Sequence record: NC_054922.1
Reading direction: 5' to 3' (one strand)
Source: Escherichia phage vB_EcoM_KAW1E185
Length of the DNA: 64,000 nt
The first letter of the stretch is position 1. Each line of letters starts with the position of its first letter. The position numbers were made by a program, and so were the translations under genes. The notes below the pieces were generated by a model. It did not search any database, was not told the DNA's origin, and was given only the letters and a program-made list of their open reading frames with translations. Below, one piece after another: positions 29,985 to 31,564 of this stretch.

Positions 29985-30308
29985 CTACTTTCCAGTGCTG
30001 CATGTCAAGTTTACCAACTTTTTCATCTTCTCAATTAAGCGTTCGGCACGTTGGCGAGCTGTAACATAATACCATTCACCTAATTCATTTTGTTCAATTT
30101 TTCCAACGATTACTGTATTCAATTCATAAATCCAACCAGTAAAGAAATTATGAACTTGAATTGTAAAGGTGAAATCTGTTCCCATACCTTCTGTTGTTTC
30201 TACTTCAATAATATCACCTTCAACTGCCATTAAGAACCACATAGTTTCATCATATTTACCATTGAAGCATTTAGTTTTAACTGCAGCGTTCAGATTAATC
30301 GTTTTCAT
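29985..30308 (-). CDS. hypothetical protein
   Basis: 107 aa ORF with AGGAG RBS and early promoter upstream. Confidence 0.6.
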   Translation of the reverse strand: MKTINLNAAVKTKCFNGKYDETMWFLMAVEGDIIEVETTEGMGTDFTFTIQVHNFFTGWIYELNTVIVGKIEQNELGEWYYVTARQRAERLIEKMKKLVNLTCSTGK

Positions 30309-30334: not shown

Positions 30335-30366
30335 AATACTATCACAAAGGAACTATACTGTAAACA
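30335..30366 (-). promoter_or_regulatory. T4-type early promoter
   Basis: Minus strand GTTTAC, 17-nt spacer, TAGTAT/TATTAT. Confidence 0.55.
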
Positions 30367-30384
30367 ACTTTGTGCAATCTTTGG

Positions 30385-30414
30385 AAAATAAAAAAGGACT
30401 CCCGAAGGAGTCCT
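30385..30414 (-). terminator. rho-independent terminator
   Basis: Minus strand hairpin AGGACTCCTTCGGGAGTCCT followed by TTTTTTATTTT. Confidence 0.7.
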
Positions 30415-30418
30415 CAAC

Positions 30419-30595
30419 TTATGCTTTCTGCTTACCAAAACGAGAAGCATCATCTCGAAGAACCGCGCGTGCTCGGCGCATGATCTTCTCAACAGTTTGA
30501 TTGATACGAGAGTTCGACCCACGCTTGTAGCCAGCGCGTTTAGAATCACCAACTTTCTTTTCAACTGCTTTCTTTGCTTTAGCTTGTTTTGCCAT
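30419..30595 (-). CDS. small Lys/Arg-rich protein, 58 aa (frame open upstream to ATG 30727)
   Basis: MAKQAKAKKAVEKKVGDSKRAGYKRGS...; weak AGAGA RBS; own terminator; start uncertain. Confidence 0.45.
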   Translation of the reverse strand: MAKQAKAKKAVEKKVGDSKRAGYKRGSNSRINQTVEKIMRRARAVLRDDASRFGKQKA

Positions 30596-30832
30596 TATAA
30601 ATTCTCTTTTAAATGAAAATGCAGGACTTATTGGCATTGCCGCGAAAGCCCTCAAGGGGTACTTAGGTTTTGAATATTTACCGACAGGATAACCATAAAC
30701 CTCGTCAACATTCAAGAGGTACACCATAAAACTGCCGGGGTCTTAAAACTATAATGATTCGCAAATCATTAATCAGACAGTTCGATGGCTCCTCGATTTT
30801 AGCTCACACTAAGGCAGTGAATCTCCAATAAA

Positions 30833-31081
30833 TTACTTCAGTGTTACCACAAAGTGACGAACTGCTTTTCGTGCAGCAGAAGCCAGAGGCTTAGCATACT
30901 TAAGTTCATCTTTTTCCTGAAGCTCAGCAGCTAATGCAGTTTGAGCAGGATTCAGATGTTTGAAATAACGCAGGATTTCAAGAGCTTCGGCTTCAACATC
31001 AATAGATGCGCCATAGTTTTCGTGACCATTATTCCATGCGTTTCGTTGCAGTTCAAGAGCGTGTTGTAATTGTTTAATCAT
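30833..31081 (-). CDS. rIII: RIII lysis-inhibition accessory protein (probable)
   Basis: 82 aa ORF, T4 RIII size, position between 30.x cluster and gene 31. Confidence 0.6.
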   Translation of the reverse strand: MIKQLQHALELQRNAWNNGHENYGASIDVEAEALEILRYFKHLNPAQTALAAELQEKDELKYAKPLASAARKAVRHFVVTLK

Positions 31082-31228: not shown

Positions 31229-31564
31229 TCACTTATAAAGACACGGAATAGCTTTATAGTGACAGGTAACGAATTTTTGTTTAATTTCTTTTGGCTGCTT
31301 AAGACCCAGAGCTACAAAAGGATGCGGAACGTTTCGAATTTGACCAACTGGAAGAGAAGTCAAATCACCAACTTCGCAGAAACCTTCAGGAACATCAGGA
31401 CCAACAGAGTGAATTACACACAGTTCAGGAACTTCACCTTGAACACGTTTACCGATAATGAGTCCTGATTCTGTGACTTCTTCATCACCGGCTTGTGCAG
31501 GTTCAGAAACTAAAATAACATATTCACCGACAGCACGAATTGGTAGCTGTTGTACTTCAGACAT
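31229..31564 (-). CDS. 31: head assembly co-chaperonin gp31 (GroES analogue)
   Basis: 111 aa, T4 gp31 length; [26 protein letters not shown] matches recalled gp31. Confidence 0.92.

What the first reader, a model, noticed from the sequence alone, without database searches (positions are those of the whole stretch)
30419..30832. Small Lys/Arg-rich ORF with unusually long leader and an 8-bp perfect inverted repeat
Between rIII and a strong terminator lies a 58-aa basic ORF (MAKQAKAKKAVEKKVGDSKRAGYKRGSNSRINQ...) whose frame is open for a further 44 codons upstream to ATG 30727. The 236-bp region upstream of ATG 30595 contains the inverted repeat TAATGATT-cgca-AATCATTA (30753-30772). It may be a nucleic-acid-binding or ribosome-associated peptide with structured-leader control, or a longer 102-aa protein.
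Basis: partly seen in the sequence, partly recalled or inferred. Interest (0 to 1): 0.4.

Follow-up and report, generated by a model that had tools for sequence, protein, structure and literature searches.

The report
T4 gene 30.9 and its structured leader
The small basic ORF is the already catalogued phage T4 gene 30.9 with a fixed 58-codon start, but the 237-base spacer in front of it is a conserved, folded, non-coding RNA built from several modules, apparently undescribed, and the reported palindrome is one of its hairpins.

Summary
The window is a T4-like (Tequatrovirus) genome. The 58-aa ORF (30419-30595, minus strand) is T4 gene 30.9, a conserved hypothetical protein (PHROG 1427). Its MAKQ start is conserved in all relatives examined.

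The 102-aa frame is an accident of this phage. A 1-nt deletion opens it. T4 has ACG where this phage has ATG 30727, and close relatives carry seven 1-2-nt indels in the spacer.

The 237-nt rIII-30.9 spacer has no promoter-like site and no Rfam match. It is a chain of sense-strand RNA structures backed by compensatory changes:
- a small hairpin (D1);
- a 79-nt arm whose tip is the palindrome (30752-30771);
- a pseudoknot-like element (B) found in all 50 distinct related spacers and once in the window;
- hairpins C and F;
- a hairpin that occludes the Shine-Dalgarno sequence.

Across genera the spacer is more conserved than either flanking gene. Its modules are shuffled, gained and lost. The whole cassette, without gene 30.9, also sits in the tRNA operon of phi92-like phages.

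Most likely it acts in cis on 30.9 translation or mRNA stability. An independent RNA function is a serious rival. The function of gp30.9 remains unknown.

The parts
30419..30595 (-). Gene 30.9: 58-aa Lys/Arg-rich protein (stop codon included), true start ATG 30595-30593
   Evidence: PHROG 1427, E 2e-31. Identical to T4 NP_049823 at 130364-130540. The MAKQ start is conserved in all loci.
30384..30415 (-). Intrinsic terminator ending the 31-rIII-30.9 transcription unit
   Evidence: 9-bp stem with 5 GC pairs, loop UUCG, then a U-run. Annotated as a terminator in phage wV7. Conserved even in the distant locus L124.
30596..30832 (-). 237-nt untranslated rIII-30.9 spacer, a modular structured RNA leader
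   Evidence: No sigma-70-like promoter. No Rfam hit. Seven 1-2-nt indels among phages more than 95% identical. 90-95% identical to other genera, against 85% for rIII and 76-80% (three genera; 94.5% in Mosigvirus) for 30.9.
30804..30826 (-). Module D1: SD-like GGAGAU (GGUGAU in other genera) followed by a small hairpin UCAC-UGCCUUAGU-GUGA
   Evidence: 13 variants: 92% paired, 7 cells changed on both sides against 2.3 in shuffles, 0/500. Lies upstream or downstream of module B depending on the lineage.
30716..30794 (-). Module D arm: 79-nt irregular hairpin with helices P1 GAGG/CCUC, P2 GCCAU/AUGGU, P3 GAACUGUC/GGCAGUUU and P4, the palindrome
   Evidence: MFE fold. 13 distinct variants: 99.1% of cells paired, 7 pairs changed on both sides, 0/500 shuffles, slid controls at most 1. 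Invariant G-U pairs point to sense-strand RNA.
30752..30771 (-). The reported palindrome: apical helix P4, UAAUGAUU-UGCG-AAUCAUUA
   Evidence: Exact position. L085 has UAUCGAUU-UACG-AAUCGGUA, with one compensatory pair and one U-G wobble. The loop varies: UGCG, UACG, UGUG, UGAG. The apical part is missing in Ozark, ime09 and L024.
30725..30727 (-). ATG that starts the spurious 102-aa frame; it lies in the 3' strand of helix P2
   Evidence: ACG in T4 and P922. The A13-U78 / G13-C78 pair covaries.
30662..30712 (-). Module B: universal pseudoknot-like core. S1 30707-30700 with 30688-30682; S2 30699-30693 with 30667-30662; conserved loops UUAU and GUAAAUAUUCAAAA
   Evidence: Covariance model R1: 68 bits, E 5e-15, the only credible hit in 64 kb, and one hit in each of 50 related spacers. 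S1 covaries, 0/500. S2: 79% paired against 68% in shuffles, 0/1000, but it needs a bulged U in this phage.
30649..30659 (-). Module C: small hairpin CCCC-UUGA-GGG followed by CUU(G/U)CG
   Evidence: Variants CCC/GGG, CCUC/GAGG and GCC/GGC across lineages.
30621..30643 (-). Module F: stem-loop GC-GG...CCUGC with loop CAAUGCCAAUAAGU. This phage lacks one A between 30642 and 30641
   Evidence: The stem sequence differs completely between lineages while pairing is kept: GCAGG/CCUGC, GGGAGC/GCUCCC, AACUGG/CCAGUU, GGCGA/UCGCC. The deletion is seen against T4, wV7, P922 and BF15.
30601..30620 (-). Hairpin AUUUUC-AUUUAAAA-GAGAAU that occludes the Shine-Dalgarno sequence (AAGAG, 30608-30604)
   Evidence: Predicted in the MFE folds. 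The pyrimidine tract changes with the SD in other lineages: UCUCCA/UGGAAGA, CCUC/GAGG, AUUCU/AGAAU.
30833..31081 (-). rIII, the upstream cistron of the same transcription unit
   Evidence: PHROG 1457, E 5e-44. 100% identical to T4 RIII.
30336..30364 (-). Early-type promoter for gene 30.8, just after the terminator. Not part of the leader; shown for context
   Evidence: TTTACA-17-TAGTAT with an upstream TG.

Best explanation
The ORF is phage T4 gene 30.9. It encodes a 58-aa basic protein translated from ATG 30595. It is the last cistron of the 31-rIII-30.9 transcription unit, which ends at the terminator at 30415-30394.

The 237 nt between rIII and 30.9 are not translated and carry no promoter-like site. 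They are transcribed with rIII and fold into a string of separate RNA domains on the sense strand:
- D1, a small hairpin;
- a 79-nt arm tipped by the palindrome;
- the pseudoknot-like module B;
- hairpin C and stem F;
- a weak hairpin that covers the Shine-Dalgarno sequence.

Shown: the domains exist and are kept by selection on base pairing.

Inferred: they act in cis. The proximal hairpins would limit ribosome access to the 30.9 start, and the compact folds would protect a long untranslated stretch from Rho and RNases. The conserved single-stranded loops of module B would then be the docking site of a factor not yet identified, possibly gp30.9 itself.
For: Identity of the ORF.

Non-coding nature of the spacer: frame-breaking indels and ATG/ACG; unrelated N-terminal extensions.

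No promoter-like site inside the spacer, and a terminator only after 30.9. The T4 30.9 transcript is classed as early, like the transcript from the proximal early promoter of rIII (PMC9697503 supplement, PMC9409239).

RNA structure:
- D arm: 99% paired, 7 pairs changed on both sides, 0/500 shuffles;
- module B S1: 0/500;
- module B S2: 0/1000;
- D1: 0/500;
- stems C and F keep pairing with unrelated sequences across lineages.

Strand: the invariant G-U pairs would be A-C mismatches on the other strand.

SD occlusion with matching changes on both sides.

The spacer is more conserved than both flanking genes between genera. Module B is single-copy in the window and present in every related spacer.
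Against: The free energy of the whole spacer is not unusual: z = -0.98 against shuffles.

Gene 30.9 does without the leader in distant T4-like phages. L124 has a 10-nt gap after rIII, and L089 has its own promoter.

Module order differs between lineages, and modules come and go. That fits independent domains better than one integrated switch.

The cassette persists in phi92-like phages that have no gene 30.9.

S2 of the pseudoknot is weak in this phage: 4 of 7 pairs in register, or 6 with a bulge.

Many sequences are closely related, so shuffle statistics overstate independence.

There is no experimental evidence of regulation. gp30.9 was not classed in the T4 proteome data, although its Lys/Arg-rich sequence probably yields few usable tryptic peptides (my inference), so that says little.
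Confidence: 0.5

Rival explanations
1. The spacer encodes one or more non-coding RNAs of their own. These would be independent, processed or trans-acting domains, for example decoys or sponges for RNA-binding proteins or RNases. They are merely parked in a transcribed slot between two small genes, much as the stable RNAs C and D sit in the T4 tRNA cluster.
For: The tight rIII-30.9 arrangement without any spacer in a distant T4-like phage marks the spacer as an add-on.

Modules are shuffled in order and are individually present or absent.

The 136-nt module A inserts at the D/B junction. It is single-copy in 407 phage records and has 18 compensatory pairs.

The complete spacer, without gene 30.9, lies between tRNA-Gly and tRNA-Gln on the tRNA strand in 17 Justusliebigvirus records. 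The chimeric ORF that came with it is frameshifted in one subgroup while the RNA modules are intact.

Module B has strongly conserved unpaired loops.

The spacer is more conserved than the flanking genes.
Against: There is no promoter-like site or terminator of its own and no evidence of a discrete RNA species.

The phi92-type copies are 97-100% identical to T4-type spacers. They may be recent and neutral.

The proximal modules C, F and the SD hairpin always abut the 30.9 start, as expected of a leader.
Confidence: 0.3
2. The spacer is largely neutral debris. It would be made of remnants of mobile or recombined sequence, such as tRNA-like or intron-like fragments, spread by recombination among co-infecting phages. 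Its helices would be inherited rather than selected.
For: Presence/absence polymorphism and mosaicism. A 13-bp identity with a tRNA-Gln 5' junction mediated a transfer. High identity between genera could reflect recent exchange. The overall folding energy is ordinary.
Against: Compensatory double changes occur in many helices across divergent lineages. Stem F keeps pairing with entirely different sequences. Module B is retained in all 50 distinct spacers.
Confidence: 0.1
3. The palindrome is a DNA-level site: an operator for a dimeric DNA-binding protein, or a recombination or homing target.
For: 8-bp arms with a 4-bp spacer are typical of operators. The sequence is invariant in most carriers.
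Against: In L085 the arms are TATCGATT/AATCGGTA. These no longer form a DNA palindrome but still pair as RNA through a U-G wobble and a compensatory C-G. The repeat is embedded in a longer covarying arm. It is dispensable in Ozark, ime09 and L024. Two exact copies in unrelated contigs lie inside unrelated coding sequence.
Confidence: 0.05
4. The real product is the 102-aa protein starting at ATG 30727. RefSeq annotates it this way for phage vB_EcoM_KAW1E185, and old T4 entries list a 97-aa '11.1 kDa protein'.
For: The frame is open in this window. Public records carry 97-aa and 102-aa versions (P0002, P0003).
Against: The frame is closed 1-49 codons upstream in relatives. The extensions are not homologous to each other. 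T4 has ACG. The frame exists here only because of a 1-nt deletion in stem F. The current T4 reference annotates 58 aa.
Confidence: 0.02

Closest known systems
Phage T4 gene 30.9 (NP_049823, UniProt P17310; PHROG 1427)
   Same: Identical protein. Same position between rIII and the terminator that precedes 30.8.
   Different: Nothing for the ORF. In this phage a 1-nt deletion upstream makes the frame look 44 codons longer. The function of gp30.9 is unknown.
Autoregulatory leader of T4 gene 32 (a 5' pseudoknot that nucleates gp32 binding; from my knowledge of the literature: McPheeters et al. 1988; Shamoo et al. 1993)
   Same: A T4 mRNA leader with a conserved pseudoknot upstream of the ribosome-binding site of a small nucleic-acid-binding-type protein. 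Works-like hypothesis: the product binds its own leader.
   Different: No sequence or model similarity (Rfam search empty). Between module B and the start lie folded hairpins (C, F), not an unstructured A/U tract. RNA binding by gp30.9 is untested.
Ribosomal-protein operon leaders with pseudoknots (E. coli rpsO/S15, alpha operon/S4; from my knowledge)
   Same: A small basic protein gene preceded by a structured leader. The Shine-Dalgarno sequence is partly occluded.
   Different: In those leaders the pseudoknot contains the SD and start codon. Here module B ends 66 nt upstream of the start. gp30.9 has no homology to any ribosomal protein.
PeSL cassettes of T4-type phages (promoter-early plus stem-loop; PMC2839356, PMC4122927)
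   Same: Short conserved non-coding modules that accompany modular shuffling in T4-type genomes. The terminator plus early promoter just downstream of 30.9 (30415-30336) has that composite form.
   Different: The rIII-30.9 spacer itself has no promoter-like site. Its modules are single-copy, not dispersed repeats.
T4 stable RNAs C and D in the tRNA cluster (annotated in NC_000866)
   Same: Structured non-coding RNAs of unknown function, embedded in a polycistronic phage transcript. The phi92-type copy of the spacer even sits in a tRNA operon.
   Different: No sequence similarity was noticed. No evidence yet that the spacer yields discrete stable RNAs.

Membership tests
T4 gp30.9 family (PHROG 1427) | Significant sequence match over the whole protein | tested here: met
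   E 2.3e-31 over residues 1-58. 100% identity to T4 gp30.9. Motif SKRAGYKRxSNxRI is invariant.
T4 gp30.9 family (PHROG 1427) | Synteny: downstream of rIII, followed by an intrinsic terminator and gene 30.8 | tested here: met
T4 gp30.9 family (PHROG 1427) | Start at the conserved M-A/S-K N-terminus (58-aa form) | tested here: met
   The 102-aa form is not conserved.
Gene-32-type autoregulatory leader | Conserved pseudoknot in the leader | tested here: inconclusive
   S1 is well supported. S2 is supported across lineages but weak in this phage. No structural probing.
Gene-32-type autoregulatory leader | Unstructured A/U-rich tract from the pseudoknot to the RBS, for cooperative coating | tested here: not met
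   Hairpins C, F and the SD hairpin fill the interval.
Gene-32-type autoregulatory leader | The encoded protein binds its own leader | not testable with these tools
   The AF2 model gives only a basic disordered half plus one helix.
Ribosomal-protein-type leader (S15/S4 pseudoknots) | The pseudoknot includes the SD and start codon | tested here: not met
   Module B spans 30712-30662; the start is at 30595.
Ribosomal-protein-type leader (S15/S4 pseudoknots) | The product is a ribosomal protein homologue | tested here: not met
   No Pfam, NCBIfam or PDB hit. Only 18 clusters, all from the same small family, plus one spurious repetitive hit.
PeSL cassette | An early promoter joined to a terminator-like stem-loop | tested here: not met
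   No promoter-like site in 30596-30832. The feature is met only by the neighbouring 30415-30336 segment.
PeSL cassette | Dispersed in several copies per genome | tested here: not met
   Model R1 finds one copy in 64 kb. Module A occurs at one place per record.
Any Rfam 15 family | Covariance-model match | tested here: not met
   The only hits are to the terminator hairpin, below gathering score. None at gathering score in the whole window.
Intrinsic terminator (for the palindrome) | GC-rich stem followed by a U-run | tested here: not met
   The stem has one G-C pair. It was not called by the scan.

The most novel reading that the evidence does not exclude
The rIII-30.9 junction of enterobacterial T4-like phages is a dock for independently folding, horizontally exchanged non-coding RNA modules that act in trans. 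The modules are the universal pseudoknot B, the D arm with the palindrome, D1, and the optional 136-nt module A and roughly 50-nt module E. They might act as decoys for host or phage RNA-binding proteins or nucleases such as S1, RegB or RNase E, or as anti-defence RNAs. On this reading they are valuable enough to have been captured, without gene 30.9, into the tRNA operon of phi92-like phages of a different subfamily.
Probability: 0.25. Interest if true: 0.8.

Novelty: new member of a known kind. Interest (0 to 1): 0.5.

Why it matters
T4 is the reference phage, yet this spacer carries no annotated feature in the T4 reference record and matches no Rfam family. I found no mention of it in the searchable literature.

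If the folds regulate 30.9, they give a handle on a conserved gene of unknown function. That gene sits next to rIII, whose product binds ribosomal protein S1 and restrains the RegB RNase (PMC9409239).

If the modules work on their own, they would be new phage RNA families, including a 136-nt RNA present in more than 400 sequenced phages.

There is also a practical point. Public annotations of this locus disagree (58, 72, 97 and 102 aa, or the label 'glycogen branching enzyme') and should be set to the 58-aa form.

Tried and rejected
**Rfam.** E-value searches on the region and on three related loci, and a gathering-score search on the whole window, hit only the terminator hairpin below threshold.

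**Promoters.** The sigma-70 scan found none in the spacer. By eye I found no late (TATAAATA) or MotA-box promoter; this was not tested formally.

**Folding energy of the whole spacer.** Not different from shuffles on either strand, so thermodynamics alone would have missed the structure.

**Protein searches.** Pfam, NCBIfam, PADLOC, and PDB by sequence and by profile gave nothing. The SlmA helix match at E 0.14 was dismissed. The exhaustive HMM search found only the same small phage family plus one spurious repetitive protein.

**Structure.** The AF2 model is a single helix with pLDDT 66. I did not run a fold search because the result would be meaningless.

**Palindrome in IMG/VR.** 13 of 15 hits are this locus (11) or its phi92-type copy (2). 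The other two are chance matches inside unrelated coding sequence.

**Other copies of module B.** None in the window.

**Alternative registers.**
- AGGUUU/AAACCU for S2: rejected as unsupported by covariation, and it clashes with S1.
- CACUG/UAGUG for D1: rejected because L008 breaks it.

**Alignment limits.** The covariance-model alignment did not fix 1-nt shifts in the 3' strand of S2, so S2 was scored with my own parser.

**Literature.** Searches for gp30.9, T4 small RNAs and the sequences themselves found nothing specific. The Miller 2003 T4 review and Driukas & Nivinskas 2003 are not held.

Full report
**What is there**

The window is a Tequatrovirus genome with its genes on the minus strand around the finding:
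- gene 31: 31229-31564;
- rIII: 30833-31081;
- the 58-aa ORF: 30419-30595;
- a strong intrinsic terminator: 30415-30394;
- an early-type promoter: 30364-30336;
- gene 30.8: 29985-30308.

The ORF matches PHROG 1427 (E 2e-31). It is identical to T4 gp30.9, annotated at 130364-130540 as a 58-aa conserved hypothetical protein. The inverted repeat is at 30752-30771, one base off.

An 8-bp perfect inverted repeat is not remarkable here. The window has 31 of them against about 11 expected.

**The 102-aa reading fails**

- In 29 related loci the protein always begins MAKQ or MSK. The frame upstream of that start stays open for anything from 1 to 49 codons.
- In an alignment of 25 homologues, conservation begins at that methionine. 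The N-terminal extensions called in various databases are unrelated to each other. They include the old 97-aa '11.1 kDa protein' of T4 and the 102-aa RefSeq protein of phage KAW1E185, which equals this window's long ORF.
- T4 and P922 have ACG where this phage has ATG 30727.
- Phages more than 95% identical differ by seven 1-2-nt indels within the 237 nt, while rIII and 30.9 have none.
- The long frame exists here because one A is missing between 30642 and 30641.

**The spacer is conserved, modular and folded**

I collected 50 distinct rIII-30.9 spacers, 120-416 nt long, from GenBank phages and IMG/VR. They are mosaics of short recurring modules. In window order these are D1, the D arm, B, C, F and a hairpin over the Shine-Dalgarno sequence (coordinates).

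*D arm (30794-30716).* It folds into helices P1 to P4, with the palindrome as the apical P4. On 13 distinct variants, 99.1% of cells pair. Seven pairs show changes on both sides (0 of 500 shuffles reach this; slid controls give at most 1). Several G-U pairs are invariant.

The palindrome itself has a compensatory U-A to C-G change and an A-U to U-G change in L085. Its loop varies (UGCG, UACG, UGUG, UGAG). The wobble and the G-U pairs place the structure on the transcribed strand and argue against a DNA operator.

ATG 30727 lies in the 3' strand of P2, and its middle base changes together with its partner (AU 4, GC 7, GU 1). The apical part, including the palindrome, is absent in Ozark, ime09 and L024, where a short loop caps the basal stem.

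*Module B (30712-30662).* This is the one element present in every spacer. A covariance model built from it scores 68 bits in the window with no other credible hit in 64 kb. It finds one copy in each related locus.

Helix S1 covaries: AU 20 / UA 18 / GC 1 at one pair, and CG 27 / GC 8 / UA 4 at the next. There are 40 cells changed on both sides against 14.6 in shuffles, 0/500.

The seven bases inside the S1 loop pair with seven bases after a conserved A-run. That gives an H-type pseudoknot topology. Across 20 distinct combinations, 79% of positions pair against 68% in shuffles (0/1000), with perfect 7-bp helices of different sequence in several lineages. In this phage S2 needs a bulged U.

The unpaired stretches UAUGAUG, UUAUCC and CGUUAAAUAUCCAAAAC are strongly conserved.

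*D1 (30826-30804).* An SD-like GGAGAU or GGUGAU followed by a small hairpin with modest covariation support. It lies upstream of B here but downstream of B in other lineages.

*Proximal modules.* Hairpin C and stem F keep their pairing with entirely different sequences across lineages. The last hairpin pairs a pyrimidine tract with the SD, and both sides change together: UUUUC/GAGAA here, UCUCCA/UGGAAGA and CCUC/GAGG elsewhere.

*Whole-spacer measures.* There is no Rfam family and no sigma-70 promoter-like site. The folding energy is ordinary, z = -0.98.

Between genera the alignable spacer is 90-95% identical to the window, against about 85% for rIII. Gene 30.9 is 76-80% identical in Gaprivervirus and Dhakavirus and 94.5% in Mosigvirus, where the spacer is 94.8%.

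**Evolutionary context**

In more distant T4-like phages there is no such spacer. L124 has rIII, 10 nt, a 44-aa 30.9 homologue and the terminator. L089 has gene 31, a promoter and a 92-aa homologue. Six loci with rIII but different downstream genes (five of them; L124 has the 30.9 homologue) have no module B. The spacer is therefore an addition within enterobacterial Tevenvirinae.

Relatives carry further modules at the D/B junction, which is the window's 30712/30711:
- a roughly 50-nt module E (wV7, T6);
- a 136-nt module A (BF15 and 407 phage records, always single-copy), with 40 predicted pairs, 18 of them showing compensatory changes, and no Rfam match.

The entire spacer also occurs outside its home family. 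With the 30.9 ATG fused to the last 27 codons of rIII, it lies between tRNA-Gly and tRNA-Gln on the tRNA strand in 17 records of Justusliebigvirus (phi92, muut, PD06 and others). It is flanked by a 13-bp direct repeat, TTTATTGGAGATT, which also forms the natural tRNA-Gln 5' junction at empty sites. Those phages have no gene 30.9. The chimeric ORF is frameshifted in one subgroup, while the RNA modules, including the presence or absence of module E, are intact.

**The protein**

gp30.9 belongs to a small family: 68 clusters at 90% identity and about 18 at 50%. All are 41-92 aa and all come from T4-like phages, with the invariant motif SKRAGYKRxSNxRI followed by an amphipathic helix. No library or PDB search gave a relative.

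AlphaFold gives a disordered basic N-terminal half and one helix at residues 29-53. In a T4 time course the 30.9 transcript is classed as early and the protein is unclassed. RIII, the upstream neighbour, binds ribosomal protein S1 and blocks S1-dependent activation of RegB (PMC9409239). A link to the spacer is only a thought.

**How it most likely works**

Shown:
- a 58-aa gene with a fixed start;
- an untranslated spacer with no promoter-like site, transcribed with rIII and closed by one terminator;
- at least four helices or helix sets maintained by compensatory evolution on the sense strand;
- SD occlusion that co-varies with the SD.

Inferred: the spacer acts in cis, setting how much gp30.9 is made and shielding a long untranslated stretch from Rho and RNases. 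Module B would be the docking site for an unknown factor. I put this at about 0.5.

The main rival is that the modules are RNAs in their own right that only lodge here, at about 0.3. It draws on the spacer's absence in distant relatives, the shuffling of modules, module A, and the capture into a tRNA operon without 30.9. Neutral debris, a DNA operator and the 102-aa protein are unlikely, for the reasons listed under the rivals.

**Verdict**

The ORF is ordinary and already catalogued. The 102-aa idea is wrong. The 'long leader with a palindrome' is a real, conserved and apparently undescribed structured RNA region, of moderate interest, whose function remains to be tested.

Noticed in passing
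L003 about 1003-1138 (phage BF15); insertion point corresponds to window 30712/30711: A 136-nt structured RNA ('module A', CGGCAAGUGCAUGC...GCUAACGGUGUGCAACAGAUAAGAG) sits between the D arm and module B in many relatives. It is single-copy in 407 phage records. RNAalifold predicts 40 pairs, 18 with compensatory changes, including a covarying GNRA-type tetraloop hairpin. No Rfam match. Absent from this window and from T4.
   Followed up: partly
L135 701-1040, L134 701-1082 (Justusliebigvirus: PD211, 'Campylobacter phage C3', phi92, muut and others); empty site L136 about 175-275: The complete T4-type rIII-30.9 spacer, plus ATGG fused to the last 27 codons of rIII, is inserted between tRNA-Gly and tRNA-Gln in 17 records of a different phage subfamily. 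It is flanked by the 13-bp repeat TTTATTGGAGATT. Other members of the genus have the empty site. The permuted order (spacer first, then the rIII 3' end) implies a circular or tandem intermediate.
   Followed up: partly
window 30642/30641: This phage lacks one A in stem F (GCGC-GGC against GCGCAGGC in T4, wV7, P922 and BF15). This weakens the stem and creates the apparent 102-aa ORF. RefSeq annotates that ORF in phage vB_EcoM_KAW1E185.
   Followed up: yes
L001 about 992-1040 (wV7), also T6 (L037), L012, L026: A roughly 50-nt optional module E (UACUAUCAUGCGUCAGAAAAGUGUUAUCUGUGUAAGUCUUGGUGGUAUG) with an apparent CAGA...UCUG hairpin. It occurs at the same junction and, in other lineages, elsewhere in the spacer. 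wV7 annotates a 66-aa 'hypothetical protein' across this non-coding region.
   Followed up: no
public records under hits H6, H10, H17, H43, L032: gp30.9 (58-60 aa) is labelled '1,4-alpha-glucan (glycogen) branching enzyme, GH-13-type' in many GenBank and UniRef records. This is an annotation error that has propagated. Others call it 'putative 11.1 kDa protein' after the obsolete 97-aa T4 ORF.
   Followed up: partly
window 30336-30415: The terminator hairpin is followed directly by an early-type promoter for gene 30.8. This has the composite promoter-plus-stem-loop form described as PeSL cassettes in T4-type phages.
   Followed up: no
L089 895-1173; L124 1235-1369: Distant homologues of gp30.9 differ in length. 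One is 92 aa with a Lys/Ala-rich tail, directly after gene 31 with its own promoter. The other is 44 aa, 10 nt after rIII. The motif SKRAGYKRKSNxRI is kept in L089 and reads ARKGYKRKTNKRI in L124.
   Followed up: partly
window 8249, 9606, 23127, 25595, 40594, 63524 and others: The window has about three times more perfect inverted repeats of at least 8 bp with short loops than expected (31 against about 11). Several share GC-rich arms such as AAGGGACC or UGGGGACC and are presumably intrinsic terminators.
   Followed up: no
window 30821-30826 and 30789-30792: Two GGAG motifs, the RegB cleavage motif, lie in the spacer: 7 nt after the rIII stop, and in P1 of the D arm. The first is GGUG in other genera. 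Given that RIII inhibits S1-activated RegB, cleavage here could separate the rIII and 30.9 parts of the mRNA. Not testable here.
   Followed up: no
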